Below are positions 131 through 54,769 of a DNA stretch of 64,000 nt, in pieces. The stretch is taken from the NCBI RefSeq assembly GCF_023055435.1, contig NW_025963791.1, positions 16,430,001 through 16,494,000 on the forward strand, in the 5' to 3' direction. Every line of letters begins with the position of its first letter. Positions within the stretch are counted from its first letter, which is position 1. Position numbers and translations under genes: made by a program. The notes beneath the pieces were generated by a model. That model saw only the letters and a program-made list of their open reading frames with translations. It was not told the DNA's origin and ran no database searches. The DNA comes from Haliotis rufescens. Its lineage: Eukaryota.

Positions 131-3100
131 CTGGCATTGTATTAGAATCGTTGTCACTTTTTTCCGAATGTCATCCTTGTTCTATAAATGTAGGAACAAG
201 CAAAATATATGGAGGGTAACCAAGAAATATGTTGAAAAATGGTAATATTGTTGGATTTTTTATGGTCCATTCATATAATTTTCATTACTTCTTTGTTTTT
301 TTTACTACCAATGGAGTCCTTTTCGGCAAATTATCAAGACTGATATATTTACTTCTTCCATGTTGCTGCTGCTACAGCTGCATCTACATCAACGTCTACA
401 TCTACATCTACATCTACATCTATATCTACATCTACTTTACATATAAGCTTCAGATATTTGAGATACATTTTTGTCAATCAGTGAGAATCAATAACATTTA
501 TATCCATACCTTGCTCTCCTTGACAGTTGACACAAGTATTTTCTTCATCTTGTCCTCGGGGCACTATGAACATATACGTGTAAAATCATACAGCTGAAGT
601 TGTCGCGAACATCTGGTATCATCACTATTTGATAGTGATTCATAAACGCATGCTCAAAATTAGGGCTGGAACGAGTCCACATTTACTACACGGGTACCCA
701 CACCCCTATTACCCGACACTACCCGGGTACCCGCTGTTGATGTTAAGAGATAGGTACAAAATGTCCGATTGGGAATAGTTTGCCAGTAGCCCTGGCAAAG
801 TGTATTTCGATACACGTATAAAACGATGTGGTCATGCATACACTGAAGTTGGCTGACGTTTTATCTTCGTTCAAACATATGTAAGTCAGAAGGAATGCCT
901 TCATAGTCATGAAGAAAAGCGAACATTAGAGACTTAAAGTTGTTGTGTAACCATGTAGTTATTTAGTGATTTTTTGTCATGAAACAATGTATCACGCGAC
1001 TAACCACGGGTCCGGGTAGTCCAGTGGGGAACCGGGTCCTACTCAGTACCCACCCGACTCGAGTACCCGAGTTACCCGTCCCAGCCCTACTCAAGATACG
1101 GTCAGAAACGTACATTCGGCTCTGGAAAGGGTTTTGTCGCTTATATTTAATTCAAAGTTTTCACAATGTGGAGGACATTTCTAAATTTGAAGCAACAGTG
1201 ACAAAAATGATGACCAATACAATTCCCTATTTCGGCATATATATTATCTGTTCCCTTGTTATTCAGGTGAACAATTGAGTTGCCTTTGCATGTGTTTGAG
1301 ACAGCTGCAACAGGTGGAGCAGGATCCCGTAACACCTGGTATCATTATTTGACAGTGATTCATAAACACATGCTTATGATATAGTCGTGATCGTATACTG
1401 GACTCTGTCTCTCCTATGATTATGGAAAGCATTTTGTCGCTTCTAATCTGGTTTGAATTTTTTGTGTTTACATACAAAAAAGGGATCAATATTTCTAAAA
1501 GTAGCATGCCTTTAAACCGAGTAAAGTGGTTGATTTGCATTATAATTTTCCATAATTGCTGCGTACTATTTGCAAAACATATTCTTGAAAGAGTAGTTTG
1601 TCTCGGAAAATTAAGCAGGGAAATGATACTTTTCAACAAACCAAACGCTATTTCAGTTTTGTTGAATGTTTGAAAGAACAATACTAAATGCACTTTCTTA
1701 CCACAAACTGTGTAAATGGTAAACGTCTTGCTTTTCACTGATCTACTTGTTGAATGAAGTATCGGATGAGCAACATAAACGGCACATCTCTTGACTGGAT
1801 GTTGTTTTTTGAATATACCCAATGGCGTACGAACTTTGTGTTATACCATTTGTCATTACCTTCAGTATTTCGATGCCACTCTTCTTTTTAGATTCTTCCA
1901 AAATCTGAAATGACAAGTGCAGCGGTCAGTTCTTCATCTTCAGTGTGTAGTGTCTGACACTCACAAAGATATCAAATGACATGCACGTTACGAGTATGTG
2001 TAACGTAGTCTCTCGGGAAAGCGTCACATTAACGAGAATGAACATATATAAGTTTTAAGTACGCATTGATAAATCTCGGATGAAACCATGTGTTTTCTTC
2101 TATGAAATACTGATTATTGCTTCAACTCTATAGCAAGAATAAGCGTCTTGCCTGTGTCAACTGTGTGCCAGGGCCTTGATGCAACCGGTTGGGCATGATA
2201 TTGTGATCTTTGTCTGAACACCTAGTGTCATCAAATCCAGATTTGTGTCTCCCGTTTACTTTTCATTTACAGAAACACAACTATATGGTTCCCATTAGGT
2301 TAGTCGTTGTAGTTAAATGAATATTTGAAACTCAGCTATATGATGTGCACACGACTTCACTACTTCACAATTAAGTGACTGAAATACACTGATTCTATTA
2401 TAAAGGTGAACAACACTGTCACTGTAAATAGACATGTAATTGGTAATAGTGGAGGTACAGACAAACATTATGACGGCTTTATCTGATATCAATGGTTAAA
2501 ATGTTCTTAACAAGTCCTTTTCTTACCTCTCGAAGTCTTTCCAGTAGTCCATATAGCCTATTGAAGATTCTCTTTCTCTGTAACAATCAGGATAATGGAT
2601 ATGAAGGCTTTTAAAACAATCGAGGTACGTACATATCTATGTAAGCACATTCATATCTATATACATTGTATGTACATGGAGGTATAACTATTTACCTTCC
2701 TGTCAGTGTTTATATGTACATCATGAATGGAACACATACCTCAAAATCCTTAAGGATGTAATCAAGGAAGAGTTTCTGTTCTAGCTCCCTCTGAAAGATC
2801 ACATGGAGTAGGATCAGCAATTTTAGGACATTACAGGTTCAATATATCTTTCCTGGTAGTCAGTATGGGCGGGATGTCCTCAAGAAACCCACGATTGTCG
2901 AAAGATTTGGAGAAGGGGTGGTAATAACCAATATTGCGCCTTTACAGGCTGACGTTACGATGTAGTTTGGATATTCACTCACGCTCCCACTCAGTTGATA
3001 TTAACTTAGTGCGGACCTGTTATTCATTTCATGTTCAAATTTCTAAATGCACAACGAAGACTTAACATACAATACGGTTCTATTATGAGCCGATAGACAA

Positions 3101-6100
3101 AATATTTGGTTCGCTATTTAAATGTCATTATTTTTCTAAACGATATATAACCTTTGTTTCCTTAAATGTTTTCCCGACAATCTTTTGAAGATCTCCACGG
3201 GTCTGAAACGTAAATATCATGAATTCAATTTATTTTAATTAATATACGAGTCTGGAAATACTATTACAGCAGGTATTAATATTAAAATGATATATAAGTT
3301 ATTGAAAACATGTATCATTCAAAACTGGCTTAAATGAAATTGTACCATAATGCTTTACAAATACTTTTCAATCAAATTACATCACTTATCTCCCTGCTAG
3401 TGTAGCTCTATAATTTACAAACAGCCTGGTATTGCAGTTTACGAACAGAAAAGTTGGAAGAATGATTTTGGATAAATACATTCACACCCTTCCAAGATCA
3501 AACATATACTGACTCGCTGAAAAAAGTAAAACACTCTTCGTCAAGCCTGGGGTATTTGTAACTTTTGTCATCTCGTCTTGAAATGTGTGATTTCGGATGA
3601 CATTCGGGTGAGCGTCTGTACATAACTGTCATTTGTGAGACTCATGCAAAAATGAAGTCAATTTCAGATTTTCTGAACTTTCATATTTCAAACCTCGATA
3701 TATTGGTCGACAAGGCAGATGTCCTCCAGATCTACAAGGCCATAGTCCAAAATGAACTCAACGCATTCTGTCTTTTCATGAACTAATGCTTCCCCGAGTA
3801 TCTTCTGAATAAGGTCATCTGAGTCTGCAGCTGAATGTAAATGTTACAACAAAACATATGTAATTGTGTAAAATGTAAGATTGATTGTGATAAACAGGAA
3901 CATTTCTCGGGGCAAACCTTAAAATGCTTAGACTAACCAGATTCGCTCTATTCCCGTTCCTAAGTAGTTTGAATACATTTGGTCGTATGAAAACTGGGTC
4001 ATGTAAGATGTTTGTATTAGGCTATGCTTCAATCCTGATCGACTATATATATTGGCCTCACTTTTTGTATGGCGTTAACAAATGAATATTCACAGCTCGC
4101 TAATGATATAGCTAACAATAATGAATGTATTTTGCCAATTGCATAGCAGACTCTTTAAAATCACATGTCTGATAAAACAAATCGATGAATCAGCAAATCA
4201 ACACTTACCATCCGAATTATCTGACGATCTCTTCTTTGCTTCCGCATATTTTGCGAATTTTTCGTCAGTATTCCGACTGAAGACAGGGGATGGGAGGTAC
4301 TCGTCCACAAGGGAAATCAAATCCGTATCCGATTTACCTGAAATATTAGTAAGCTATTGCCTTCAATGGAATTCTTAGTTTACAAATTGTGTATATAAAT
4401 GAAACGTTTCAACTGCAAGTATCAAATGCATTTTTCTATGGTGAGGTGCTTCATTTAGAGAATCTTCGGACCATGTGATTCGTTCCGATTATGAACCTGG
4501 ACCTGTCAATTACGATTACGACACCCAATTTAGACACTCACTCCAGGGAGGACTTTCAGCTACAATATTTTAAAGCAAACAATTAGTCACTTTTCGATGC
4601 ATACTTTTGACAACTGCAGATAGTATTCCTCTAAGGAAATCCATATCTTTGTTGAGGTCAACGACAGTGATGAGGTCCCGTCTTTGAAGACACTGAATGA
4701 TATCTTGAACTTGTTCGTCAGTTGATTCTGATTTGAATGTTCGACCAAGATCCGTTTTTATTTTCTTCTTTATTCTTTCATCAATCACCGTTCCTTGACT
4801 GAAAAAGGAAACTTTAATTGCATACATACATACATGTATACCATGGGATATGGGACACTGAATATTTTAGGAGTACATGGCACATGTACATATTATTGTA
4901 CCCAACTGACTGGTACTCAGTGTGTTCACTGACACAACATCGGATATTGCCCTCACTGCATGATTTGGATAGAATGTTAACCGCAAGTATTTGTTGCTTT
5001 ATTTCAATTCCATCATAGTAAAAATTGGTCGGTCTCTTAGATTACAGCTACAGTCCTACATTTATAAACACATTTCACCACACCAATTGTGTGTCTATAA
5101 AACATGTAACTGTATAGATACCCTTCATTCTTGATTCTTTCAATTTTGTTGTGGGACACAGCTTTGGATTCTTCATAGGCAGAAGATAACACATCAGCCA
5201 TTCCACCTGTGTTCTAGAAGAAAGTGATTGTTATATGACTATATCATGTTATCAGGCATAAAATCCCAAAAGAGAAACATATATTTGTGTATTCTGTAAC
5301 AACGTTACAATGGCATTGATGCAACAAATATAGACGAGCAACGTTAATTACATTAAAGTTATAAAACGGTTCTTTTTCATATTTCTTACATTTAGCTCTG
5401 AAGATACTGAACTTTTTAGACAGTAGATCACACTGATTCGTCCAATAGAGTATCAGATATGCCTTAATATGTATTACGATAAAAGGTCGTTGATTACGAT
5501 ATCGACTATTTTCTGTATTAAACGCAAACAAAAACAAATTTTAAAAGGAATAGCATATATCCATGAAAATAATGAATACATCATGACAGTGTCAACACCT
5601 ATCCTCTGTAAACGTAATCTCAGGCTGAAAGTAGCGTGCGGTAAATTGTCAGTTCACAAGTAAGTTTTGGATATGATCACCATCACACAAGCTTGCCAAC
5701 GACGCCTCACTGACGACACAATATGGCTGAGGAGGCCAGGGGGATGTTATTCAAGATAAGGACCAAGGCCTGACGTTGCTGGACCAACGTCATCGGTTTG
5801 TTTGGAAGTCGGCGTAAACGACGTTCCATTTCACCCAACACATACACGATGGGCGACAGATCTGGCGAAACAGCAGGTCAAGGGAGTATGTGAGTGACGT
5901 CCATGCGTCTGAAGGAAAGGGAGAATATAAGGACGGACAGTTTCGTCACTGTACCGTACACCTGTCCAATTGCAATAGATACCCAATAGACGAGTCCTGC
6001 TATGTGTAGTGATGCCTCCTGATATCATTACCCTCCCACAACCGACTGCAGAACGTTGAAAACAAATGCGTCATCGTAAGTTCAATCCGACGTTGGTTAA

Positions 6101-9100
6101 CACGCTGACTGCCGCCACTGTCTTTCAAGATGAAACCTGGACTAATCTTATAAAGTCATATAGCCTGGACCTCAGATGTTGTCTTGACTATGACATACGT
6201 GCAGTAATGTGCAAATTCAACGACATAATGGTTCATCATCACAGAGTGTTTGTTCATGTGATGCATAATTCTCAAAAATCCATGGCAATTTCATTTTAAT
6301 GTGATGTTTTATGGTGCACAGGATGTTTTTCGGCCTGTGTACGCTACGTGTTACTTGATTGTACAAAACAAAAAATTTAAACAATTAATGGAATATTTAA
6401 AAGAATAATTATATAGCTATAACAATAAGCTAATAACTGTTAATGTAAGAATATTGAAACAAAACGTTGAAATACCTTGGCAATGACAATTGGAACATTG
6501 TCTTTGATGAGATTTCTCACTCCTTCAAGATGAATAAGCTGACCACCATGAAGTATTGTCACTGTGGGAATCGCACTGGAACCTTCTTAAAAATATTGAT
6601 AACCTTAAATACAGACATATATGAGATCCTACAATTCGCTGTACAGAGTTGTGTTACTCAGTTCAAACCCCGAGCCATACAAGCCATACAAAGATATTCG
6701 ATTGTTGGTTCGAATTCCATGTTTGTCACGATTATTGTCCTCAGTGTGACCACACGAAGCTATCGGAGCTTTGCGACTTACTCCCACATACGCCCACTGA
6801 CTTACCGGGAATAAATGAAATATAGATCAAATACATGTAAAAGATCGACAGCAGAGAATAATCAGTCTTGATTATCTGCCGAAACAGATTCCTTTGAGCG
6901 TAAAGGCAAAATAATGAATTTTATATGAATGGATCACTGTGATCACATCAGTCAGTGATGACACCTGTTGTCCTCTAAAAGGGTAAGCCTTTCCTGCCCT
7001 ATCGGTAACACCCGCTACTCACAACATACAAACATAACTGAATTTGATAACGTAGGCCGCCGTGATATTGCTGGAGTGTTGCTAAAAGCGGTGTAAAACC
7101 CTATTCACTCACTCACTCATTCGATAACGTAGGATCGCATCTTTTATCTTAAAATAAATCAATGTACCCAAACTCTTGTTTCACGACAAATGTTTCTGAA
7201 TTTCTTATGGTACCATTGTTAAACCATGCTGATTTTTGGTATCATCAAATGGTGCAGGGAGGATACAAAAATATGGATCGTGAAACTGTTACAGTCTCAA
7301 CATAAAATATATATGTACCTCTATATTGAAATCAGTATCTATATAGTGCTTAAGTATGTGATCATGAATTACAAACGCCATGTCGAACGATAAAAAGTCT
7401 TGTACTGATTGCAACTTGATTGAAAGCTCACTGAAAAATACCATGTCAGAAATTGTTATAAGTAACAAGTACCATCTTTTAACGTCTTTTGGTGTGTTGT
7501 GGCCTGGGGATCGAACCACCGACCGTCTGCTTTCCGGGCAGACGCTCTATCCACAACACCACAGAGGCGGTCTCGTACCAAAATCGAATTCACACACATG
7601 TTTTATAGATATCTTCTCCAGATGTATCGCCTGATGTCAATACTGGGGGCCAGTTTCGGATACTGTATTACATAATCATACTTACAGTACTTTCAACGAT
7701 TTATCATATGTTGGCAAATGTTAATAGTTGATGAAACAGTGCATGTTTCACGCAAACAAATTGTGTGGATATATAGTAAGATTTCGTTTTATCATCCCAC
7801 GGGAGATATCGCTTGGGTGAGATCAAGCGATATCTAAACTGTCGATATCGCTGCAATGAAATTGCATCACAGTGCTTTTCAGACCATTGTGACGTCATTG
7901 TTACCATGACGTCACAATCAAATGACATCACTAATGGCTCTGCTACTGAAGCTGTTAGCAGTACTATTTACACTTAAGACATTACTTATTACTTTCTACA
8001 AGCTGAAAAAGTTGGAAGAATGATGTTGGATGATAAATAAAATCGGCGAGCCTCGGAGTTTTCCCACTTTTATCAACTCGTGTTGATATATTTGATATCA
8101 AAAGACACTCGGGTGAGATTCTCTATATCACAAATCCAATGGGACCGATAAAAGAAAGTGGGAACATGTTGATTGATATCAATATCAAATTAATAGATAT
8201 GCCTTGGCAGAATTTACATCAAAGATTGTTACTTGTGAAACTGATCCGTCTTACCAATGCCCCCTGCTGCGAGATCAGCAATCAGTCGTGCTTGAAATGA
8301 TAGGTTAGAGAGATCACACAGGTAGGATTCACGTGTTCCATTATCGGTCAGTAAGAAATGGCTTGTGGTCATCCCAAACTGTCGCAGGCTTGTTGAGTTC
8401 GTGTCATCAAGGTCATCTCTGAGCAAATAACCAACGTGTCTGTGACCTTTCTCATCCACCTAGTATACGAATATAGATCGAAATGTGACAATACATTGAC
8501 GTAGAGGTAACACTTTGTCTCACTAACTTCATGTACAGGTGTATACTGTGTATTACTTGGAGGGGAAAAGATTCAAGGACGATGTATGATGTGCAGTGAT
8601 TGATTTCAGCTTCATGCAGCTTTAAACAAAGATCTGGTTTTACACATTGTACCTACAACACAGCAGTTACATGTTTAAACATATGTACATAGTAAAATAC
8701 TAAAACTGACATGCAGAAACTAGGTCTTATAGAAAAAGTTGAAATAATTGTATTTAAGAAAGTGAAATGTTCAAATTATATTAATATGAAAATGCTTCAA
8801 CAAAGATGGCAAATGTTGTTACAGCACGTTAATACTTAAAAAGTATGTATCAAACATTCTTGGAAACTTTACGATATGTGCTGTAAGTGATTCGCTGATG
8901 CTCTTTACATTAACAATACCTGCATCGCCCCGAGGACGTCTTCAAAATTCCCCCAAGCACTACATCCAATAGAGGTAACACGCTCGTTTTCCTTCAGGTC
9001 AGAGATGAATTCGGCGACACCATTATGCAGGCCATCAGATATTATCCATATATCTATATTTGACAAAAGATTTTTGGATGAACGCTGTATCTTCGATTCA

Positions 9101-12100
9101 TGCTTTACATGTTGATATTAATTAACAGATTTCCTTTATACTCATATAGCATCTTATATAACGATGATAATTTGTTTTGAAATATAAATTATTTCAAACT
9201 TTTTAGATACATGTATTCAAAGAGAGGTCTTATAATCGTGATAAATCTGATATGAGGCATTATTGTAACATGATGTACAAATATCTACTCTGTTCAACAA
9301 ACCTGATGTTCCTAGTAACGTTTCCAAGGCACTTTCAAGTTCATACTCCATGTTGAAATTAGTATCTTCGGGTTTGGAACCGAGCAAGGCAAAAATCCAT
9401 TTTGGTCGAGTGAGGTGCCATATTTCGAACAGCAGGTATTTTACATAGTCCATTGAAACGTCTTCATCAATGCGTATAAACTGCAATAAAGAATTGCGAA
9501 CATGTTTCATTGGTTCCAGGACACAACATTCAGATAGTTGCTGGATTTATTGTGAGATACATGTATGTGAGTATATTGAGATCAACCCTTCTCATGTAGA
9601 TTTTACCTGCACTTCATGTTTCTCACTGACGTCGTTATCAGTATCTTCTTCACCTTCCATGAACTCTTGATCCGTGTCCGTTTTAACATAGATCGTTCCG
9701 TAGTTTTCCGTGGGTGTTGTTTTTGTGTTGACTTCCTTCTTCCATTTCGGACTGTCATTCTTGTCTGTGTGGTCGTCTTTATAGTGGCCGCATAAACAGA
9801 CGTTGTCAGATAACCTTCAGAGAGAAATGCATATGTCGTAAGTCAGTATTCACTGTCAACGCCTTAGAAAACATCTCAGAAAGTCCAGAATTGCAGTGAA
9901 TTGTAATAAAATAACGTTGAGTCTCTAGACAATAATATTTTTCATATATATAATATTAAGATAAACAAATACTACAGCACCAAGAACCAAGATGCCGTTG
10001 TTCGCGTTTTGCGACTGTCATAACAGCTTGATCAACTTGTGTAAACTGACCACACTTGAAACGGTACTTGGTGAGAAGCACTGTCTAAATCTAGCGCTCA
10101 ATTACATTGTTTGTTGTGGGCTTTGTTTCCGCCATCTGCAGTGAACCTGACATGACAATATGTCCAGAGAAAATTGTGTCAAGGGACACTAGCATGATTT
10201 ACAGTAGATCTGTGTCTCGATTACCTTTTCAATAGAACTGATGAAAATATTTTCAACATCACTGATTTCTAATGCTTCGGCTATTAGGCCTTTTTTGAAC
10301 AATACACATACTTTGAAAACATGAAACATTTTCTCTGTTTGACGTGTTCTTGAATCCAGGCGTCATGTTTCTTGTACCATGGTTCCTGAAATACAGACAC
10401 AGTGAACACAAGAGACAGAATAGCGTTGTACGATTCCTACTGTCAGTAGCATGTGTTTACGAATCACTACCAATACGTTGTGATACAATGTGTTCACGAA
10501 AATGTGAGTGTTTCCTGTCCCACTAGTAACTCAACGCCCAGGAGACCATTGAACTTATATGGAGTCACGATGAATTCTGACGAAGGATGGACGATTATGG
10601 ACATTCTATTGGTTAAGATTATGCCAGGTGTATGAAGTGACATCGTTTTTACAATGTTAATGGAGTTAGAATACATAACTTTGACGTCATATGCTGACCA
10701 GATACATGAAGATCCGGGGTAGAATAGGTCTTCAGCCACCCATGTTGCCGTAAGAGGCGACTATGCTGGTCGTAAGAGGCGACTGATGGGATCGGGTGGT
10801 CATGTCATCGATCCCAATTGCGTGGATTGATGCTCATGATGTCAATCACTCGATTGTCTGGTCCAGACTCGATTATTTTTAGACCGCCGTCATATAGCTG
10901 GAATATTGCTGAGTGCGGCGTTAAACAACAAACAAACAAACATGCTATTCATATGGGATTATTTCACACAACGGTGTGTTATATCCATTGTCCAACTACA
11001 GAATACAGCTATTTGACGGCGGTCTGTAAATAATCGAATCTGGACCAAACAATCCAGTGATTGGCATTACGAGCGCCGATATACACAATTAGGATACGAT
11101 GACATGCATCAACCAAAGCAGTGAGACTGACTACCCGATCCCGTTAGTCGCCTGTTACGACAAGCATGGATTATTGAAGACCAGTTCAGAACGGGATCCT
11201 CAGCCTGCACGTGTCCAGGTTGGACGATTCAGTGATCAAACCAATGCTGTGATGGACCTTCGCGGTCAGGACGACGTGCAGACAGAACACTGCTTTGATT
11301 AGTACGACGGCAGCCATTTGCAAAGAATACTTTCCTGAAGGTACCCCATCGACGTTGGTCCACCAGAACCTTGAGGAACCGCTTATGAGCAACAGGAATG
11401 GCGCCCAGCAGAGTCACCAAACTCCCCAAATACTTGCAGATCGCCATCAGAGGTTCCGTTCGGCATGTGTGTGCTGTAGGACGAAATGTAGCTGGATTCT
11501 GAGAACCTGTCGGAAACTCCATTGGTAAGACGAACGCAGGTCCGTGCTCCATGTCACTTTTGGGGGACTGGGTGTTTGGATTCACAGGCCTATATACCCA
11601 CGAACATCAGGCCAACTGATCTCCCACAATTACAAGCTGGTTCTGGTCACCATACAAGGCCATCTCATAGGTAATTATTACATCCGAGATGTCCTGGAAC
11701 CACTTGATGGCCCTCCATTTCGACAGCCACACACTCGCCGAAAGATCCCCTCGTTTCCGGGCAGCAACAGCCTACCTCCAGAACAATTCTGTGACGACTC
11801 TGCCTTGGCCCGCCATGAGTCCAGATCTAAATCTTCTGGACCACATTGAGACACCCTAGGGCGTAGTCTACATGAACCGAAGCCGCAAGTCCAGAATCTG
11901 CGTCTATTGGAAGCAGCTTTGCAACAGGAGCGGATGCAGTATCCCCTTGACAAGATCCGAAGGGATGAGACACACGTTGGTGGCCGTTCTCCGGGCATGT
12001 GGAGGGTTTAGTCGCTACTGAACTACGGGATTTGTCATCTAGGGACTCAAAGTGACACTTTTATCCAGATATGGACTCCGAAAATCATCACTGGTGATTG

Positions 12101-13031
12101 TGCTACATTATAGTGATAAAACTGACAATTTGTCAGGGGGTTGTTCTTACAGAACACATTCATTATCAATGCTCATTTTGTCTGTAATTTCATTCCAGCA
12201 ATTGTTTCATTAGTCATTAACATATTTTAGGGGTGCAAAACATATTTTCAGGTGTACAGCTGTATATGTTTTGTGTAAACGTGACTCATGACGCCTTAGT
12301 TATTTCAAGATTTGCTTCACTCTCAAACAGTACATGGACTTGAAACTTTGAATGTATGAGGCATGTAGTGTATATATTTATTTGTTTCACCCATCATCTC
12401 TGTTAATAAACCTACAATTCGCACCATATACCTTGAATGCATTGACCAACACGCTGACACAACAGTTCATTGTATATTGTTGGTTTCATCTTGAATATGC
12501 TAAACTCATACATAAATAGTATGTGCATGTTAGCTTCTAGAACAAGGCTACACATTTACACGTTTCAGTTCCTGAGAAAACATACTTCCTTACACGGGAT
12601 AACATGACGGTGAAAACTTGTACTGAAAGATTGACGGGAACTGCTGATATAAGTAAACAAATTGTATGTTTTGCAGCCTTAACATATCTGTACGATTGTT
12701 GATAGAAGCATACATACCACTTCCGCTGTATCGGACTCAATGGGGTCTACGCCAACGGGTGAATCTGGCGGCAATGAAATTCTTATGTATTTTCAATAAG
12801 ATCAGGATTTAAGGTCACAAAATGCAATCATAATCGCCAAGAAATAAAACTGGATATTATTAAGTCGTCATACATATTATGATAGTATTTTTATTTCGAT
12901 ATGTCGTAGTTTTAAGATATATGTAAACATTAGCAAATATGTAGAAGTTGAACATAACAAAAATTGGTAAGATTGTCGTTAATAATTATTATAATTCCTC
13001 TTAAAATTGCTTATTAAAAACTTCATACCAT
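131..13031 (-). CDS. TRPM: TRPM-family channel, gene B (tandem paralogue of gene A), N-terminal part; continues beyond left edge of window
   Basis: In-frame GT-AG exons: 13031-13029 (ATG), 10385-10312, 9814-9607, 9480-9303, 9053-8920, 8459-8255, 6585-6476, 5213-5122, 4798-4605, 4337-4209, 3830-3694, 3202-3152, 2790-2740, 2577-2527, 1904-1860, 563-510, 181-131. Exon phases, and often sizes (74, 178, 129, 51, 51, 51, 54, 51), match gene A. Peptides include PWYKKHDAWIQEHVKQRKC, VCLCGHY, IISDGLHNGV, SHFLLTDNGT, IQCLQRRD and LVHEKTECVEFILDYGLVD. Confidence 0.9.
381..436. repeat. (CATCTA)n hexamer microsatellite
   Basis: Direct reading. Confidence 0.9.
661..1089. mobile_element. hAT-type MITE
   Basis: TIR TAGGGCTGG..CCAGCCCTA, repeated TACCCG subterminal motifs and an 8-bp TSD ctcaaaat/ctcaagat. 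Confidence 0.8.
1098..1440 (+). mobile_element. Penelope-like 3' fragment (same family)
   Basis: SKFEATVTKMMTNTIPYF matches the 60130-60190 copy. Same ACACCTGGTATCAT..GTGATTCATAAACACATGC motif, also seen at 605-655. Confidence 0.6.
5700..6341 (-). mobile_element. Tc1-like transposase remnant (intron of gene B)
   Basis: MISGGITTHSRTRL..NWTGVRYSDETVRPYILPFLQ resembles Tc1 VWGGI..RT.L..LT..RY.DEIL.P. TA-flanked terminus TACACAGGCCGAAAAA near 6341. Confidence 0.65.
7461..7572 (-). mobile_element. SINE family 2 head fragment
   Basis: Matches the head and core of 19818. Confidence 0.7.
10707..11195. mobile_element. Two family-3 copies tail-to-tail (10707-10940 +, ~10990-11195 -)
   Basis: Both match the family-3 consensus. 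Confidence 0.8.
11200..12256 (+). mobile_element. Degenerate Tc1/mariner transposon
   Basis: Frame-broken peptides FGGLGVW..LVTIQGHL..YYIRDVLEP, WPAMSPDLNLL.HIE and RLLEAALQQE..IRR..GGFSRY*, typical of a Tc1 DDE C-terminus. Ends in a TIR-like ...ggtgTA. Confidence 0.75.
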
Positions 13032-20116: not shown

Positions 20117-20299
20117 TATGGAAGATAAAGTTTAATTTTCACAGGTTTTGACCAATGGTGAACCAACCAGAAGAGGCAACATTTATATGGGCAATATTTG
20201 TCTGCAGGCCTCGACAATGCATATAAAATTGTTTTGGATAGGATGGCAATTAGGAAAGCTGCCACTACCTTTGCTGTTCCATTTGCTACACTTGATGAC

Positions 20300-29507: not shown

Positions 29508-32500
29508 TCAATCCTTTGACTGCTCAGTTTGCATGTAGAATTCTGCGTTCGCTCTCTCGAATACATCTAGTGAATCTTCAAGTTGTTGCTCCCCTTCGGC
29601 GAATATATCATCATTGGATTCAATCTCACAATCAGCAGAAAGGTACTGATATGGGTCTTCGTAACCACTGACTGCGTTGTTAGATTTGACAGTTCCACCC
29701 CCATCTGCAAAATGAATATACTGTGCAGCTTATCAATATTAGAATATATTTAAATACCATATACTAGTATTATTCACATTTCAATGTACATCTAGCTGTA
29801 CCCATTGCAGCGGACATAATATTTACGCACACCATTGTGGGATTTGCACAACACATTCTCAGGTCAGCCATATCCATGTGATTAAGGATATATGTCTGCG
29901 TCAAGCTGATCAGGTAAGACTCTTATGTGGAGTAATGGCAGACAATGCTTCATTATTTTGACAAGTATATTTTTAATATAGCTACGTATCTCAAATTAAC
30001 ATCTCGTAGGCAAGACAGCTTCCAAAACATATTATATAACGGTGGACCTATGATTATTAGTAGTTATGATCTAATTACCTTCATATGGATCACCATAACC
30101 CTCTTCATCATATGAAAATAAAGAAAAGTATTTAGATTCATAACACGATTGCTCATCACGATATGGCTGAAATATTGCCGATGTGACGTAAAGCATTAAC
30201 TCACTCACTCATAACACGATTGGTTATTACAATAAAACCATTTATTGCATTTTATGAGTCTCTGAAATAAATGAAAAGGTTCAATGTTTCAGCAGACATC
30301 GAACGTATTTACTATTGGGCCGTTAAACCGTTAACATATACGCGTTGATGCAGAACGTTTCCTATCCAAAAACGAGATCAGTAAAATTGCTGGGAATAGT
30401 TTCGTACCTGGATCTTCTTCTATTTCATCCCAGATGTTTTCATAATAATAATATTCTGGAAGAGAAAGCGTATTAATTGCCATTACAAAACACTGACTAC
30501 CATGTCCAAAGTACATGGAAATAAAGAAAATAAAAGAATCTGTATTTAACCATGAACTTAATTTGAACATAGAAACCGCACAATTCCTGATATGTAATTC
30601 AGTAAGTGGAGTACAATTGAGCAAGTTTTGATTGGGTTGCGCTTTCAACTAGTACCACGTGCGAGTCTCATCAGGTCACAACTGATGAATGGACATGAAG
30701 TTGTAACGTATAGTTACTTGATATCATGACAATTGGGGAATACCATGATGTCACAACACCAAGGTGACAATGGACAAATAACTTACGCCTTTACATTTAA
30801 CTTCGGCGCAATTCATGATTGAAATGTTGCTCATTTTGAAACAATGTAGGTTCATCATGAAAATAACTATACGTTACAACTTCATGTCTGTTAATCATTT
30901 ATGGCCTGATGAGACTCGTATGTGGTACGAGTTGAAAGCCCTTTGTAAGGTAGCTTCATGTTTGAGCATATCCTTAATAACCATTTTTTAAACTGAGAGT
31001 ATGCACTTCTACCTTCTGTGATATTCATTGCAACAGAGCTCTAAGATCTTTTACCCTATCAAGTATCCGTCTCTTAAATGATTGTAAATTTCTGAAATGT
31101 TTTCGTCGCTCTGTTTGTCATGTGATTATATGTTTAAAATCTGTAAGCACTTGTACATATGTACAAAGAATTCCTTTGCGGCCGGTGATAAAGTTTTGTC
31201 ATTGTCATGGTCATTACGTACCGTGACTTTCGCCATCGTGTGTATCTTCACCTTATGAAAGGAAATATATATATTTCATATCAATATGTTAAAGAAACAA
31301 AGACATTTGAAAAAATGTAAAGCATACTCAAAAACTAAACATTTGAATGTGAAAGCCAACATGACATTCATCGTAGTTTTAACAGGTACATGTAACGTGA
31401 ATCTAAACAAATGAAGTGTTGCATACTGTTATGAAGAAGATGAATGAATGGAAACTTAAACAAAGCAGTGCATGGAATTCGTGGTGCTAGACATGGTCAT
31501 GACTGATCCGTGTTATAGTCAGATGAACATACCATTCGTTATGATATGAATGTAAAAGTTCAGACTTGCACGATTTAATATGAAATAGCATGGTTCGTCT
31601 TGATTGGGAAATACATTCGAAAACATCACATTTATTAAGCTGTACTAAGACATCAATAAAATCAATATCAACAGATTCCTTGACAAATATTAAAAAAAGA
31701 ATAATTATCTGCGCATTACAAAGGTTGAGAGGAAAACGCGAATCATAACGCAAGTGAGGCATTTTCTTTAATTGCTCGCCAAATATAAGGTAAATCTTGT
31801 TCTTAAATGATTTCAAAGCTGATCACATGGATTGGAACGCTTCAGCGCATACCTTCAGCTATATACACGGGCATAAACGATTCAATTATTGTTGTTTTTA
31901 AATGAGTGTTGATTCATCCCACTTTCAACAGATTTTCAGTGACTCTCATGTTGGGTTAGATATGCCTTCACTAGGCGGCAATAATGCATTCGTTATGCAT
32001 TAAATTATTCGTTCGAAATAACTTGCACAGTGTTATGAACGTCTGTTTGAAACGCGTTCCCGTTACTAAGCGCATTTACGTAAAATAAAAGGGTTAGTGC
32101 TATAAACACCGGAGTATTGTGAAAGGGTTCAATACTCTTTCAGACGTCACATATATGATATCTATGTTTGCGCAATACTTTACATATAACGTCATGCTGC
32201 TTACCTGTTGTGTCTATATGCTGTCTAATTTCCCGAAGATTGACACTATTATCCTCCTCCAGGCCTTTTCCTGCAAAGGTAATAACATACACATAACAGA
32301 GATATTTCTAGATAACCCTGTCCGTTAGATAACCCGAACATTTAACACCTCACGCTTCGATTTTAAATTCAATTTAGCGCGGTTAAATCTGTAGGTAACC
32401 AAGCTAAACATAGAAAACACAGTGTGTTTCTCTCCATTCTACCATGACAAAACCTAGCGCAAACTCATTTACGGAAATATTGATTGACTCCAATGTTTTG

Positions 32501-35500
32501 AGTGGGTTGTGGGTCTGAATAAAATAAAAACCGATACTACCCTTTAAACAAACTAGGACGTTTCCGTATGATAAGATAGTTTGTTTTCATCAATATACTG
32601 GCATATATGACAAGCACTGAAAGGGTGTAGCACAGATACATGTACATGTACTTCGTAAACCAAAATGAAGGCAACCCTTGAAAGGTTTGGCCCTGCGTCA
32701 CTATCATGACGTCACTATCATGACGTCACACTCCTCACTATGACACAAATATCAAGCACTCTGTTGTCCTCAGATTTGAAATAAACTTTCTTAGTTGAAA
32801 AGCGTTTTGGCACACGTACTTTGAATATTGTAGTAGCCTAGAGTTTGCACTTTGTAACCTATAATGTTTTTTATAAGGTGTTTTTTTGTGAAACCTCTGA
32901 TTCACCAGTGTCGAGTAGTTTCCTAATTCGTTGTATCCGTTTAATCCATGGCTATGTATATCATTGACCTAAAATTGGACAAATACATTTTAGGTTTGAC
33001 CAAATATTTATTTCATAAGCCTGTATGGAAAATACACCATGGTTCTGAAGCATTATAGCAGTCATGACTACACCAAACACTAAACCTGCCAAAGGGATCA
33101 ATGTGCAATTAATAAAAGAGAATCGTGATAAAACATCCACTTTATAATCAAGGTTTTCCTCAATTCTGATTCATGAACTACTTACGCTTGTCCTTTCTCT
33201 TTATGCATAGGATGCAAAACGTGAGTTTCTTTGCCAAACTTCCAAGTCTCCACAGGATCGAGAACGGTAAAGGAAGTGGTGGTTTTCTGTCATACTCAAC
33301 CATTAAACGACACTTTTGCCAGGCCCATATTTCATCAGCTTTCTGTCTAACATCTTCAAAGATGTGGCTGAAAAAGAGGTTCAAAGACGTAGAATTGTTG
33401 TTCATGAACGAAAACATATGAATGATTCAAAGGGTGCAATATAGTATCAGTATAGTTTAAGGGCTCATTTTTATTACTTAAATTATTCAACTGTTCTACT
33501 TCAAGAATTTCATCGGGCACCTTACAGTATGAACATTAAGACATAAAGGAAGACTATTGCCCATGACATGAGCGATCACAGCATCAGTAATATAAACGCT
33601 ATTAAGGAATTTATATAGAACATACTTGAAATGTCTCAATATATCGAGATTGATCACAAACACAAAACAAAGCAGTGTTAGGCAAGGTCTGGTACTACGA
33701 GTAACATGTGTCATAGGGATTGCAAATGTAAGCGACACAACTCTTTCGATAATCAAAAGAAATCCATTGTACGATTCCGACTAAATCATAAGCATGTGTT
33801 TGCGAACGGGTGAGGGTATCCTGCCCCACTCGCATGATTATTGCAATGTGACCAATGGAACACCAGGTGACCGAAGTTTAACTCGCACACCAAGACACAT
33901 TTAACCAATGTATCATTATCAGTCCACAAGTAACCATGTAACAAACTGAAACGTTTGTGTGAAAAAACAGATCTACTATGTGCCATACAATGGACTTGCA
34001 GTGTGGTTACTAAAGTGCCAAAAATGTCAGTGACTAAGGAATCTGATAGCTAGGTTGTTTGATGAGTAAATATGAGTCTTAACCGACCTATTGGTATCAA
34101 CTTGTAAATAATACATACTTGAACAGTGCAATCACAATGTTCAAGAGCAAAACGTGCGTCATGATCATGTATACTGCGAGCATTAATGGCACCCATATTC
34201 TTCCAGCGTTAGGTATGCAGCTCCCATCGCATTTCTCGCCGACGCCTGGAAAATAGAAAATATATCACACAACTAGTCATCTACACTTTCTGGTAATATT
34301 GGAATTATTAGAGTTTCGTCTTATCATGCTTCTTCAGTAACTGGACTTACAATCTGGTAGCGTCTACTTTCGTATTATCAGATGGTCACATTCATATTCC
34401 ATTCAGTTTTCAGCGTAGTTTCTTCACCTTCGTTAATAAGGCGATGACAAACATTATGTCAAAATGGGAAGATCAATCTTCCAGAAACGTGGAATGACCA
34501 TTCTGTTCATACTTAAACCAACATTTAACTGAAAATAGCGATAACTATTCTATTTATAGGAATGAACAAACACACCCTTGATTTCATCCAAAAAGAGCTC
34601 TCCGAATATCTGCCAAAATCCCTTGCCAAAGTCAAAGACGAACGATGGGCTGTCAAATATATTTCGGCCGGGTGGGTGAAGGATCGCTTCAGAGGCAACG
34701 GCATAGGAACATATGGCCACGAAGAAGATCACAAGGAAAGGGATGAGATCCGTAACCTGGATAGGTTGTAAGGTGGGTTTCATATGTACAATGTGCATTG
34801 AATTGTTTTATTTTGTTTGTTTGTTTGTTTGTTTGTTTGTTTGTTTGTTGTTTAACGCTGAACTCAGCAATATTCCAGCTTTATGACGGCGGTCTGTAAG
34901 TAATCGAATCTGGACTAGACAATCCAGTTTCTGACATCATGAGCATCGAACAACGCATCTGGGATTCGATGACATGCATCAACCAAGTCAGCGAGCCTGA
35001 CCACCCGATCTCGTTAGTCGCCTCTTACGACAAGCATAGTCTCCTTTTACGGCAAGCATTGGTTGCTGAGGACCTATTCTACCCCGGATCTTCACGGGTC
35101 ATTGAATTGTAACCTTTTGAATAAGATGTAACCCTTAGAATAAGACAGTATTACGTGGTCCACCGAAAACGTAATTAACATGACAGGAGTATAATAATTC
35201 TAAAGTAATGAGTACTTTTGCCTAATATATCGCAAATCTTAGAATAAATGAAACGTAGCAATAAGGCGACTTGTTTTCACATAAATACAACGTGTATGCT
35301 TTACGTTGTTTTTGCATAAAGGACAATATTAATAATTTCAATACTCTGAATAGAGAAAAACAAATGTTAATTACACTAATGTCCATAAAAAGGTCACTTC
35401 GTGTCATCACTTCAACCGCCTATTGCCAAGAATTCAGGATCAAACCTGTTATCATTGTTAATCATTGTTAATTTGAATGATAACAGGATGCAAATGCAGA

Positions 35501-38500
35501 TTTTAAGAAAGAAACCCATTGACTAATGACTAAAGAGGGACTATGCTCCGAGCAAATATTGTTATTAGTGATGTGTCGAACTAAGACATGATCTATGTGT
35601 AATCAAGGCATTCAAGACCAGATAATCTTATAGACATAATCAAATCTAACAAAGAGGGTTTTGAATTATTTGAAGCAAATTGTCAGATACTGACTTGCAC
35701 GAGACTAGTCCCCCTTTAAGGACTTGCATTAAAAGAAAGTATTTTTCAAAACGTGATATAGTACCATTCTGAAGACCATGTACAGCATGGGTCCGATTGA
35801 CTTGCTGGGCGTACAGGCTTGAAGCAATCTCCAGAAGAAGAACATGAAATTGATGCTGAGGCAAAGCCTCCCGTAACCGAACAGGTGCATTTCCTTGTAC
35901 TCATTGAAAAACACAGGCAATATACGTAACGTGTACCCAATGATAAACCCAATAATACACAAGCTGTCAAGCATGTTCCATTTGTCCTGGTAATATATTT
36001 TAATGTGTTTGTTTAGCAACCACACCGCTGACTTCAGACGGTTCAAACACCCTGAGTTTGGTCCACGGTTCAAGGCTATGAATTCGTTTCTTTCTACTGC
36101 AAACTGCAAAACCTGCAACATATGGGATGACAAAATCGTAACCAAAGTTAATAACTTCGCAAGTAAATTATAGTACTATGAGAGTCAACAAAAGTTATGT
36201 CTATAATATCAATAAAACATATCATCTATATATCTTTGTCTAAAAAGCTGTTGGTACATGTAACCTTCATAAATAATTAAACTTGGACCTTTGATTCTGT
36301 CAGCTCATTTTGTATCTCATATCATAATTCTATTTCACTCCGTGTGTTAAATGAATTGTTTAAATAAGTTTGGAAACAATGAGTTAATCGTGACAAAACA
36401 AATACAAAACAGATTTTGGAAGGAGTGGTCTTCACGATCGTTTGACGTCTGATACATATGAAAAAATAGCGAAAAATAACTAAACTCGATATGAGTATTT
36501 GTCTTTTCTGTTCCCACATAAGCTAAAGGTACATACATTATAACTGAATCTGACACTGAGAACCAAAAGGGCCTTTGTTGGTATGTTACTGCTATCGCGA
36601 AATCAGAAGTCTTTTACATCTCATATGGTCAAAAGCATTTGACTCAAAGATCAAACCAATATTTATGTAATGAGCAGGAAAGATATAGGGATTCCCAATG
36701 TTGATGTCACCAAGGAGCATACATAAAACTTGTACATATTTATTAATATTTATCTGTAAAAAGTAATGTGATGTACATGTATGTGGTTTTATCCAATATA
36801 TACACACCGAGATACATATACATAGCTAAAGCTTTGGCTAGTGTTGGATAAATCAATTTTGTCTTCCCGTTGATTTTGCTTTGTGTGGTATTTTAATTTG
36901 TCTGCAATACATTTTAAGTTTTTGAATGAATCGAGCAGATTATTTTTTAATTTGTTGTGTCAACAAAGTCATGACAGGTACAAATCTTTGACAACTGTTT
37001 ATGCACCAATCAAGAGTCATGTAGGGTTGTACACTTTTGCAATAATTAGAATATTAGAGTCAAAACCCTTTCCATGTTCAAAAGAAATCTCTGCTAAAAG
37101 CAGAGTCGATTTATGATTCTGACTATATCATGACCATGTGTTTATTAATCACTATCAAATAGTAATGATTTATTGTGAGGAAGAAATACTGGTACACAAT
37201 AAGCAAAATACTTACGACCGTGTTCATTGTTTATCAATGTATGTTGGTTGTATTATTTTCTAAGGAATATGTAAAAACACAAACAAATGTCAGCAAGTAA
37301 TCTTTAACTTCAGCACTAAATATATCTGATATCTACTTGTATTGCAACTTTGAATGCATTGTTATTCGCTATATGGACCAGTGTTCCTATGTACAATAAG
37401 AGCTATAACTTGACATTTTACTTGCTCAGATAAAATGGCCAGGAGAAATGGTTATGACATAATAGCAATGCTTATGATACTAGTTAAGTCGTTTATATTA
37501 TGAAAAAGGAAATACCAGTACCTGAATCATCTCTTCAAGAAGGAAGGCTGACATCCAGATAAGAAGAGGTATTTCCCACCTTCGCTTGTAGTCCTCCTCC
37601 AGCTTGTTCAACAGCAAGTGCGCATACAAGCCGAGGAATACACAGTACACGATCTGAAGTACAATTAAGCCAACACACTTTCAGTCCACAACAAACAATT
37701 GTACATATATGTTTTCGAAACTGAGGGTAATTGATGTTTTTTGTCTTCTTGGGTGGGTGATCAGTAAGTGATTCAATGAGTTGATCAGTGAGTGAGTGCG
37801 TGAATGAGTGAGCGTGCTTACAACTTTCATAAAATCCCCTAAACATGTGTATGGTGCTGAGAGATCATGGATTATAATCCTATACTAGCAGAAGTGGGAT
37901 TGAAAGCTGATCCTGGTATGACGGAACATTGTATAACACCTTTTGTGTAACATCATAAATATTTTTCAATTTTGCCGAAACACATGTTGCGGTTTTTGGT
38001 TACAGTTGGAATGTCAATAAAGGGTTGTTATTGATCCTTTATGTTATGTTTCTATTTGTACTCTGCGTAGTATTTTCATATTTGTCCCCCTTCTGAGTGG
38101 AAAGTCTGTTCACGATAAGGCCTAAATCACATATATATTGGACTAACCAGATTCAAAATGACCTTGACAATTGGTGTACTGTAAAACCTTCCAAGTCGTC
38201 CGCAGATTCCGACCCTGGGCGAGCTGCAAAGTGCATATTTTTAACACATTAAATAATAAATAGAAGCGCCCATATATTGACATATTTTGTTTTACAACCA
38301 ACAAATTAGTGAACAACCTCCTTAGCAAAAGAGAATATAAAAGATACAAATAAATGTATAACCTTTCTCTATCCACAGGGTCCGAACTGTATTTTCCTCC
38401 AATCGTTGTCGGGTTCGGAGTCTTCTTCATGGGTTGTGTCCCGATGAGGATCCACATCAGAAAGGGAAGAATGGCGCAAACAACAATCTTAAAAAAATCG

Positions 38501-41500
38501 GGACTTCTTTCAAATTCTTATTTAAAATTGATTAAACATTGTAAATGTACCATATACAGTAATACACATATGCTATAATGCACTGATCTAGTAACTATTC
38601 ACATTGAAAACATGCTTCTGTTCATTAGTATTCCCCAAAAAGAATGTCCAATTAGGATTATATTACTTACTCTCCAGACCCGTGAAGATCCGGGTTAGAA
38701 TTGGTCTTCAGCATTCCATGCTAGTCGTAAGAAGCGACTAACGGGAACGGGTGGCCAAGCTCGCTGACTTGGTAGATGCATGTCATCGTATGCCAATTGC
38801 GTAACTCGACGCTCATGATATCAATCACTGGATTGTCTAGTTCAGACTCGATTATTTACAGACCGCCGTCATATAGCTGAAATATTGCTGAGTTTGGCGT
38901 TAAACAACAAAGAAACAAGTGCAAAAGTGAGCGTGGCTCACTAATACCTCCGACCCGCCTAGTGTGTCAGTAGTTACAAATTAAATAGCTAGGGTAGGGT
39001 CAGGGTTTGAAAAATTCATAAAAAAATGGAAATTAATAAAAACATTTTTTTCTTTCTTTTGACTGCACCCCTCCATATGACACATTATATGTACTAAGTT
39101 TGAGATGAATCCTCTAAATAGTGTAAGAGAAATCGCGCGGACAAAGTTTTCGGACAGACAGACAGACAGACAGACAGGCAGACGGTCGGACGGAACCTTG
39201 GTATAACTATATACCCCCGACATTTTGTCGGGGGTATAAAAAAAGAAACAACCTTACTCTCCATGTTGATGTTTTCTTTGGAATATCTCCCATCCACTTT
39301 GAGTACGTGTAGTATGCCATCCCTTCACTTATGAAGATGCTGTTATTCTGTTTTTCAAAGGCAAGGGCAAGAAAATCAATGTTCCAACAATTCGTTGATA
39401 TGTTTCTTTCCACCAAATGAACAGTTTTCTCCTTGTCATCTCTGTAGCATGCAGCCAGTGTTCCGGTGGCGTGCGACCTATAGAATCTAGAACAAAAGCA
39501 TTTGTTACAACTATTGATCATCTGGTATTTTAGGAATCCTCATACGGTCGAATGTAATTATCAACTTTATGGCAGAGGTGTTCCATTCCGAGTTACATGA
39601 GTGTGAAATAAAAGCTCATTATACATGCAGTACATGGAAAGTGAAGTTTATAAATACAATGACAACATGAATATGACTTACTTGGAACTTTCTTCTCTCA
39701 GAGCTTTCTTTTTGTTATTGAAAGTCCCTTGTGCAATAGTGTCCATTATAGTTCCTGCAGCCAGTGACGCGGTCACAAGATCCTTACAAACGTAAAAACA
39801 TGTAAGATGAGAAAACTCGCGGTTCTCTAAATTTGTACTCGTTCCCGTCTATAATATTCATATAAAATGTACTATTTACTGATTTCCAAAATCTATCTTA
39901 ACTATTTTAGACAGGAATATCGCTTAAAGTATTTTTAAAAAAACCAACACGATACAATGTAGTCCACGTGGCCTTCAAAATGCAATTTTCATTACATACT
40001 CGCAAAGGATCGATGAATGTTACTCAAATGTTTCAAAGGGTATTGCATCTTGGAGATTCACATTTGTCACTTACCTTGCCCCGTTTCCAAAAGGCCAGGG
40101 CCAGAGAGTTCCTGTTTGAGAGGACTGCCCACACGAATAACCTCCGATACGCCTCCTCAACTTCCAAATCATCATCAATCTGGAAAAAACAAAACATTCA
40201 TAGTCATAAGAAATCCATTGGACGATTCTGACTTTATCATGTGATTATCACATTCAATAGTGATGATACCAGGTGTTCGTGAAAACGTGATCGGATTCTG
40301 CCCAATCAATTGCACCCATCATAAACACATGCAAAGACATTTGTTACACCGGATCATATGAGACAGAGGTAATAGGGGAATGTAATTTGTCAACGAAGTG
40401 TGATTATGAAACCAATATGTCTAAAGCATTCTACAGCAAACACTAGTACATAGAAATATGACAAAGTGAAATTCTCAGCAGGGGCAACACCTGATGTGTT
40501 TAAACTCTTACATTGTGTTTCATGTGTCCATCGTCGATGAAACAGCTGAATGGCAGGTAGGCGTATGTAATTCTTCGCATCAAAACTGCAATGGGATCGT
40601 AGAGACGTTTCTCTGTTTCTGAGGCCTGGAGAAAAACAAAAGAAAACTCTCTTGAATTACAGTGACTACCTTACATTACAAATTACTATTGTTTTCATGT
40701 GAATAAATATATATAGGCCTGTATTGTATGATGACCATGTGTTACGTCCACGCATTTTAACTAATCTTAATACGCCTGCAAATCTACTTTTAAGTGCTCA
40801 TAAACTTATGTGGAACAATAGCGTATGTCACATCTCAAGTCCCATTGATTTAGGCACTGATAGGTTCCTGATAGTTTTACGGCGATTATCACCGTGTCGT
40901 GTAATGTGTAATCGAAGCCTTTCCACGCCTTTGACGGGATCTCCTGTAAGAAATATAACGAGAAAGTGAAAGCACATGAGTCATGCAGAGCATGAGTTTT
41001 CTATTCAGTCTTAGATCTATTGTGTATTTGTCACTCAACGTGATGACCATAGATATAACAGCTTTGTCCCAGTCTTTTAGAGGTTTGCCAATAGAAAATT
41101 AAAGCAAATATCATCTGAAGTTTACTGAGAAAACAATATGTGAAATGCCGGACTTCCTCATTGATAACATATGTTAAATTTGGAGATATGACCTTTAGAA
41201 GTATGCATCCCCCTGGGCACCAATTGTGGTTCCCTCGTTGCTGATCTATAATTTGGCCAAGGAGTTTAGCTTCACCAATCAGATATACATGTAGTTTAAT
41301 AATGGTCAAACAGTCCCTTTCACTAATCAACACACAAGAGCTAGAAGTAGAATAAACGAGTGAAATATTTAGCTCTATGTCAAAAGATTCAGTGTGACAA
41401 AACACCCTTCACCAGATTGTATGACAAGAGAGATTACTTCAGCTTTCCAATAGTCAACTTTTCGTTTATGTCCAGTAATATTCCAGCAGCTCTAGCCTGT

Positions 41501-54225: not shown

Positions 54226-54270
54226 GTAAAGAGCCTGGCTTTGGCACCCAAACACCTCCACCAGGACGTT
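54223..54270 (-). other. Gene A start exon (5'UTR, ending in the ATG)
   Basis: tttcag|AACGTCC...GCCAAAGCCAGGCTCTTTACATG|gtatga. The paralogous exon at 13067-13029 also ends in ATG|gtatga, and both splice in phase 0 to xPWY. Confidence 0.7.
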
Positions 54271-54769
54271 CTGAAACGAGTTATTAATACATGTATGTTG
54301 AATATGTGGTAGATGTCAGTTTCGGGGCCTATGACATAGCATGTGTCTTCATGATGAAACCACAAGATGACCACAGGAGGACGTCATGAACTATCAATAA
54401 CGAGTGTGTCTAGATATGGCACCATCTCAGAAAATCGGATTGTAGATGGATAACATGCCACTAATTAGAGTTTTATCTGAGTTCAACATATACAACAGAC
54501 TACCTACAATGAATTACTTTCTCATTTGTCGTCATTGTGTAGGTAGATGAGTGAATGTTAGTCGGCTGTGTCAACTGTCTAACATAAAGTTGAAAACGAT
54601 TGATTGCAATGACTGCACATGTATATCTGAAAACTAAAACCAACATACTTGAAATATAACCTGTCCTTACCACGTTTGGGGGCGTCTTGAGACGAGTCTG
54701 CACCCTCTGGATCAGACATAGCGGCCATCAGTACCTTAACATTGATGTTATTAATAGAATGATATTGAG

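What the first reader, a model, noticed from the sequence alone, without database searches (positions are those of the whole stretch)
131..3202. Same micro-exon array conserved exon-for-exon in paralogue B despite rapid sequence change
Seen: gene B has exons of 51, 51, 51, 45, 54 and 51 nt, all phase 0 (TRGDLQKIVGKTFKETK, RELEQKLFLDYILKDFE, RKRIFNRLYGLLERLRE, ILEESKKKSGIEILK, CPEDKMKKILVSTVKESK, NKDDIRKKVTTILIQCQ). They pair one-to-one with gene A's first six micro-exons while the introns share no similarity. Lengths and the hydrophobic register are kept but surface residues differ. Inference: the exons are real, predate the duplication, and may be diversifying on an exposed face.
Basis: partly seen in the sequence, partly recalled or inferred. 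Interest (0 to 1): 0.7.

Follow-up and report, generated by a model that had tools for sequence, protein, structure and literature searches.

The report
Copied mini-exons enlarge abalone TRPM channel
Six short exons are spliced in a row into an abalone TRPM-type ion-channel gene; they likely arose by repeated copying of one ancestral exon and are predicted to fold into an extra helix bundle inside the cell, and in this gene they do not change unusually fast.

Summary
The six exons are real: phase 0, AG/GT-flanked, in the RefSeq model, and exons 1-4 are joined in spliced contigs of 4 of 4 runs (4 studies), with exon 5 at the loose end of 3. Five of six lengths match gene A (exon 4: 45 vs 42 nt). 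The host is an abalone TRPM-like channel, one of four neighbouring paralogues. Other TRPMs in the genome carry a single 51-63-nt phase-0 exon here; exons 1, 5, 6 (weakly 2) are copies of one unit in donor-anchored register. The array predates the A/B split and probably the C/D split; C and D here lack copies 2-5, which a relative's C-like protein keeps. AlphaFold predicts a helical bundle (pLDDT 86) at the MHR4 spot next to which TRPM3 contacts G-beta-gamma. Diversifying selection in B is not supported: orthologue identity 77% vs 81-83% for SLOG (n.s.); A/B pN/pS 0.53 with saturated silent sites. Only C vs D shows raised replacement change. An unchecked earlier scan note describes a different micro-exon array in an octopus TRPM. 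Verdict: new variant of a known kind, interest 0.42.

The parts
131..12765 (-). In-window part of gene B, TRPM-like channel (RefSeq P0002, 1420 aa); continues about 12 kb left of the window
3694..3830 (-). Gene B exon ending the conserved MHR helix just before the array (phase-0 donor)
3152..3202 (-). B short exon 1 (51 nt); positional equivalent of the single ancestral TRPM exon; repeat unit
2740..2790 (-). B short exon 2 (51 nt); weak, diverged copy of the unit; predicted to extend the exon-1 helix
2527..2577 (-). B short exon 3 (51 nt); one predicted helix; kinship to the unit not shown
1860..1904 (-). B short exon 4 (45 nt; A 42 nt); predicted loop, least conserved
510..563 (-). B short exon 5 (54 nt); copy of the unit; one predicted helix
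   Evidence: (loose ends = window 534-563)
131..181 (-). B short exon 6 (51 nt); copy of the unit; one predicted helix
   Evidence: no joint seen directly
29511..54728 (-). Gene A, paralogous TRPM-like channel (RefSeq P0001, 1389 aa)
44796..46600 (-). Gene A short exons 1-6: 46600-46550, 46176-46126, 45839-45789, 45518-45477, 45152-45099, 44846-44796 (51, 51, 51, 42, 54, 51 nt)
40512..42630 (-). Gene A further phase-0 exons 42630-42589, 42292-42248, 40943-40893, 40625-40512 (42, 45, 51, 114 nt): acidic linker, then the conserved MHR4 helix

Best explanation
The six exons are spliced in a row in an abalone TRPM-type channel gene and likely arose by in-frame tandem copying of the one short phase-0 exon that TRPM genes carry at this place; they are predicted to fold into an extra helix bundle on the cytoplasmic MHR4 region that likely serves as a conserved docking or regulatory surface rather than a hypervariable one. 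Shown: exon structure, splicing of exons 1-5, repeat kinship of exons 1/5/6, a single 51-63-nt exon at this site in other TRPMs of the genome, conservation among orthologues. Inferred: order of events (expansion on the stem of the A/B/C/D clade, divergence into distinct helices, later loss of copies 2-5 in C and D). Predicted: fold. Untested: any partner or effect on gating. Because every exon is phase 0, gains and losses keep the frame, so the insert behaves as an evolutionary accordion between paralogues.
For: Spliced joints 3694>3202, 3152>2790, 2740>2577, 2527>1904 in 4 of 4 runs. The single module of gene C ranks B6 1st and B1 3rd of 1404 17-aa windows of B, and A6, A5, A1 1st, 4th, 6th of 1373 windows of A, in exact donor register. 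Alpha-type TRPM on C1 has a 51-nt phase-0 exon here; three other loci have 60-63-nt candidates. In 27 of 108 non-abalone TRPMs the best module-like window ends 17-21 residues after the LxxLY motif. Segment between anchors is 221-238 aa in A, B and the H. rubra C-like protein vs median 114 in 125 other TRPMs. H. rubra C-like P0036 has windows best matching exons 1, 2, 5, 6 in order, while C and D here keep only exon 1 plus downstream short exons. Tree ((B,A),D) support 1.0, sister P0011 lacks the array. Models: pLDDT 85.6, pTM 0.82 in context and 0.74 alone; helix ends fall near exon joints 2/3, 4/5, 5/6, 6/7. TRPM3 N548, a G-beta contact in 8DDX (PMC12799613, passages), is the second residue after the equivalent 17-aa segment.
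Against: Exons 3 and 4 do not score as copies (ranks 237-879) and exon 2 only weakly; amphipathic Lys-rich helices resemble each other anyway. One-exon-one-helix fails for exons 1+2 (one long predicted helix) and 4. P0036 exon boundaries were not seen, only inferred from protein. Two of the fetched canonical loci (C24, C583) show no separate short exon and C235 is unclear. The insert model rests on 9 near-identical-family sequences. The TRPM3 exon-17 G-beta-binding peptide (residues 591-603) has no counterpart in the A/B alignment, so a docking role is analogy only. C vs D shows excess replacement change.
Confidence: 0.68

Rival explanations
1. The array is a diversifying, exposed recognition surface under positive selection.
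For: A/B identity 38/101 vs 573/1097 elsewhere (p 0.007); C vs D replacement changes 11 in 82 sites vs 0.035 elsewhere; run X14 differs at 5/198 micro-exon bases vs 5/554 in large exons (p 0.14).
Against: No excess among B orthologues against SLOG; pN/pS 0.53 with saturated pS; 20-37% of all 101-aa windows are as divergent or more; the insert is cytoplasmic; exons 7-10 and pre-S1 are more variable.
Confidence: 0.1
2. The symmetric exons are a splicing cassette that yields many isoforms by skipping or mutually exclusive use, as in schistosome micro-exon genes or TRPM3 exons 15 and 17.
For: All phase 0; vertebrate TRPM3 has alternatively spliced short exons in the same MHR4 region (PMC9043526, PMC6583685, passages).
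Against: No skipping joint in 4 of 4 runs (contigs drop rare forms); the three distinct RefSeq isoform proteins of B differ by 1-2 residues outside the array; the predicted bundle would be broken by skipping.
Confidence: 0.12
3. The insert is a tolerated, functionally neutral outgrowth or an ordinary sequence split by later intron gains, not a copied module with a role.
For: C and D live without copies 2-5; this MHR4 segment varies from about 60 to over 190 aa across TRPMs; no fold match.
Against: Register-exact kinship of exons 1, 5, 6 is not expected from intron gain; 77-97% orthologue identity and kept hydrophobic core show constraint.
Confidence: 0.1

Closest known systems
Divergent 'TRPM-like' clade of Pacific abalone (PMC12980990; main-text passages and rows of supplement Tables S2, S3 read; figures not seen)
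   Same: SLOG plus six TM, no Nudix; Hdh-TRPM-like_12 (1418 aa, 38 exons) and _11 (1277 aa, 31 exons) share a scaffold, matching B (1420 aa) and C/D (1283 aa) by length and linkage (inferred, not aligned)
   Different: The paper's main text has no occurrence of 'exon' or 'tandem'; the repeat-built insert is not described
Vertebrate TRPM3 MHR4 short exons (exon 17 G-beta-gamma site, exon 15) (PMC12799613, PMC9043526, PMC6583685; passages)
   Same: Short exons in the same MHR4 segment of a TRPM; a G-beta contact (N548) lies at the insertion point
   Different: There they are alternatively spliced single exons; here about six consecutive exons, no skipping seen, no exon-17-like peptide, and not an alpha-TRPM
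Tandem duplication of symmetric (same-phase) exons (PMC3632108, PMC9741552; search listing and abstract start only)
   Same: Frame-neutral copying of a 0-0 exon
   Different: Copies are included together and predicted ordered, not mutually exclusive or disordered
Schistosoma micro-exon genes (features recalled, no call)
   Same: Run of short symmetric exons
   Different: Exons are 42-54 nt, make about 7% of a large channel, are cytoplasmic and conserved

Membership tests
TRPM family | N-terminal SLOG (PF18139) | tested here: met
   76.9 bits vs cut-off 25.7 for P0002
TRPM family | MHR3/4 TRPM2-like domain (PF25508) | tested here: met
   82.6 bits vs cut-off 27; Foldseek top hits TRPM8/4/2
TRPM family | Six-TM Ion_trans domain followed by TRP helix | tested here: met
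   PF00520 54.3 bits; residues 921-1230 align to nvTRPM2 6co7, E 1.5e-67
TRPM family | Tetrameric cation-channel activity | not testable with these tools
   needs expression and recording
TRPM2 proper | C-terminal Nudix (NUDT9-H) domain | tested here: not met
   No Nudix family at E <= 1; tail is acidic low-complexity
alpha-TRPM (TRPM1/3/6/7) | Groups with TRPM1/3 in a tree; keeps the MHR4 exon-17-type peptide | tested here: not met
   A, B, D form a long-branch Haliotis clade apart from the TRPM1 clade; no counterpart of the peptide
TRPS (ced-11-like) | Groups with ced-11 | not tested
   No named TRPS was among the tree rows
Mutually exclusive tandem duplicated exons | Only one copy per mRNA | tested here: not met
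   Consecutive copies joined in 4 of 4 runs
Schistosoma-type micro-exon genes (features recalled) | Coding sequence made mostly of very short symmetric exons | tested here: not met
   6 exons of 42-54 nt give 101 of 1420 residues
Schistosoma-type micro-exon genes (features recalled) | Frequent exon skipping | tested here: inconclusive
   No skipping joint in contigs, which drop rare forms
Any known helical domain (death fold, vinculin-type bundle) | Fold match well above background | tested here: inconclusive
   Foldseek no E <= 0.001; VIA best Z 6.1, rmsd 3.9, 102 aligned, generic bundles

The most novel reading that the evidence does not exclude
Abalone TRPM-like channels have built a new cytoplasmic domain by multiplying one exon at the surface where TRPM3 docks G-beta-gamma, and paralogues tune their regulation by gaining, losing and (in C/D) rapidly changing these modules: an exon-count dial on a channel's regulatory face.
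Probability: 0.22. Interest if true: 0.68.

Novelty: new variant of a known kind. Interest (0 to 1): 0.42.

Why it matters
It is a traceable case of a new folded domain being born from one ancestral exon inside a conserved channel, with natural long (A, B, H. rubra C-like) and short (C, D) versions side by side. These give a ready comparison for what the poorly resolved MHR4 outer segment does in TRPM regulation, and for sensory or thermal adaptation in abalone. The mechanism itself (symmetric exon duplication) is well known, and no function is shown.

Tried and rejected
No RNA holder on record was listed for the stretch; the runs laid are 'RNA?' contigs. True dN/dS: A vs B silent sites saturated; no orthologous DNA was at hand, so orthologues were compared as proteins. 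Word-based homologue searches gave only Haliotis proteins and one rotifer TRPM. ESM Atlas: best 0.83, TRPM2-like clusters, lead only. Pfam: no family on the insert. Fold searches of the insert: nothing above background, which shows neither a new nor a different fold. Death-fold idea (six helices, about 100 aa): pyrin/death-domain rows only Z 4.4-4.5; dropped. Remnants of lost exons in C and D introns: none at score >= 24 with splice flanks. Repeats in the sister gene's MHR4 intron looked like a second exon array but are a 43-bp minisatellite. A first tree run timed out; the FastTree used 133 of 153 rows (>= 60% filled), 710 columns, insert left out, midpoint root. My tree label tying P0011 to the fetched C113 locus was a guess and is not used. 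PMC7682392 was not held. Searches found no description of this array; subscription papers and figure-only supplements are not covered. No complex prediction was run.

Full report
Observation. RefSeq proteins labelled Haliotis rufescens map onto genes A (P0001) and B (P0002) exon by exon, including every short exon. Lengths are 51, 51, 51, 45, 54, 51 nt in B and 51, 51, 51, 42, 54, 51 nt in A. Left of the window B has four more short phase-0 exons (54, 48, 81, 111 nt; A 42, 45, 51, 114). Introns share only dispersed repeats.

Transcripts. Contigs of 4 of 4 runs laid (4 studies; recorded only as probable RNA) skip exactly the GT-AG introns between the upstream exon and exons 1, 2, 3, 4; the loose ends of X1, X3 and X14 are the first 30 bases of exon 5; contig X2 runs 97 bases beyond exon 4, which fits exon 5 plus most of exon 6 (inferred). 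No skipping joint was listed, but contigs drop rare forms. The stored isoform proteins of B differ by 1-2 residues outside the array.

Host genes. Both carry SLOG, the TRPM2-like MHR domain and Ion_trans above cut-off and no Nudix. The locus holds four paralogues: B, A, C on the minus strand and D, an inverted copy of C about 95% identical in exons. In a FastTree of 133 of 153 proteins with the insert left out, ((B,A),D) has support 1.0 and its sister is another Haliotis protein without the array; no non-abalone orthologue appeared among the best 150 hits. A 2026 survey of Pacific abalone TRPs places six such genes in a divergent TRPM-like clade; two on one scaffold have 1418 aa/38 exons and 1277 aa/31 exons, likely B and C/D (by length and linkage only) (PMC12980990, passages and supplement rows).

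Origin of the array. The exons sit between the LxxLY helix and the next conserved MHR4 helix. That segment is 221-238 aa in A, B and the H. rubra C-like protein against a median of 114 in 125 other TRPMs (131 of 153 rows had both anchors; four non-abalone rows also exceed 190). Of seven other TRPM loci of this genome examined, the alpha-type one has a single 51-nt phase-0 exon here, three have a single 60-63-nt candidate, one is unclear and two show none. The lone module of gene C, scored against every 17-residue window, picks B6 (1st) and B1 (3rd) of 1404, and A6, A5, A1 (1st, 4th, 6th) of 1373, all ending exactly at splice donors; exon 2 is weaker (A2 18th, B2 238th), exons 3 and 4 do not score. 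In 27 of 108 non-abalone TRPMs the best module-like window falls on the equivalent helix. I infer tandem copying of the ancestral 0-0 exon. The H. rubra C-like protein P0036, on a contig of the same length as that of the B orthologue, has windows best matching exons 1, 2, 5 and 6 in order, whereas C and D here go from exon 1 straight to the downstream short exons, without remnants. So the array probably predates the (A,B)/(C,D) split and was trimmed in C/D; its exon boundaries in H. rubra were not seen. Turnover continues: D has a 15-nt exon that C lacks and has deleted a 51-nt exon that C keeps.

Rates. Among B orthologues exons 1-6 are 98/101, 78/101 and 78/101 identical, against 237/240, 200/240, 194/240 for SLOG (n.s.) and 294/298, 262/298, 257/298 for TM (p 0.38, 0.014, 0.041); between the two distant orthologues 93% vs 93% and 92%. 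A vs B: 38/101 vs 573/1097 (p 0.007); dN 0.50 vs 0.40 (SLOG) and 0.27 (TM); pS about 0.7-0.87 everywhere, so dS is saturated and pN/pS 0.53 (0.39-0.71) overstates omega. This is mildly relaxed purifying selection. Against my reading: C vs D have 11 replacement changes in 82 sites in their two short exons against 0.035 elsewhere (p 2e-4), though the N:S ratio is not significantly different (p 0.34; 25 of 29 exons used as background, gapped ones dropped).

Structure and mechanism. AlphaFold2 on orthologue pieces gives pLDDT 85.6 (pTM 0.82 in MHR context with 58 rows; 0.74 alone with 9 rows): exons 1+2 form one long helix, exons 3, 5, 6 and 7 one helix each, exon 4 mostly a loop; exons 8-9 are low-confidence acidic linker. 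No fold match stands above background. In mouse TRPM3 the residue N548, reported as an extra G-beta contact, is the second residue after the equivalent 17-residue segment, and the alternatively spliced exon 17 that binds G-beta-gamma lies in the same MHR4 stretch (PMC12799613 and PMC9043526, passages). The most likely working model is a fixed, basic (27 K/R vs 17 D/E in B) helical appendage on the outer cytoplasmic face that alters partner docking or gating; this last step is analogy and untested, and B lacks the exon-17 peptide.

Novelty. Exon duplication and TRPM are both known; this insert was not found in print in searches. An unchecked earlier scan note reports a different micro-exon linker in an octopus TRPM. 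Verdict: new variant of a known kind; interest 0.42.

Noticed in passing
L001:9110-9700 (left of window, gene B intron after the 54-nt exon): About 15 copies of a 38/39-nt minisatellite whose unit contains a donor-like GTRAGT word; 38-nt units break frame and it is not in the RefSeq model.
   Followed up: partly
right of window, window-frame coordinates 68500-120000 (C, minus) and 148436-201869 (D, plus); L011-L020, L031-L032: Inverted duplicate pair about 95% identical; D has a private 15-nt phase-0 exon (182360) and lacks C's 51-nt exon; raised replacement change in their short exons.
   Followed up: partly
window 20136-23475: Transposon relics between genes A and B: DDE_1 fragment (20411-20725), rve integrase ORF (21714-22550, above cut-off) and an opposite-strand 267-aa ORF (22675-23475) without Pfam hit that looks polymerase-like by eye.
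   Followed up: no
L029:394-2607 and L023:6200-7030: Minisatellites (43 bp x 49; and a 39-bp repeat copying the end of the preceding exon with its donor) in the same MHR4 introns of two other TRPM genes; the second could be a template for how exon ends get copied at this site.
   Followed up: partly
P0013, P0015, P0016, P0018, P0019 (other molluscs): These predicted TRPM proteins lack the ~17-residue helix after LxxLY, as expected if gene prediction missed a short exon there.
   Followed up: no
P0002 C-terminal tail (left of window, about -10600 to -12177): Acidic low-complexity tail with short tandem EPVA/EPDA repeats whose number differs between orthologues.
   Followed up: no
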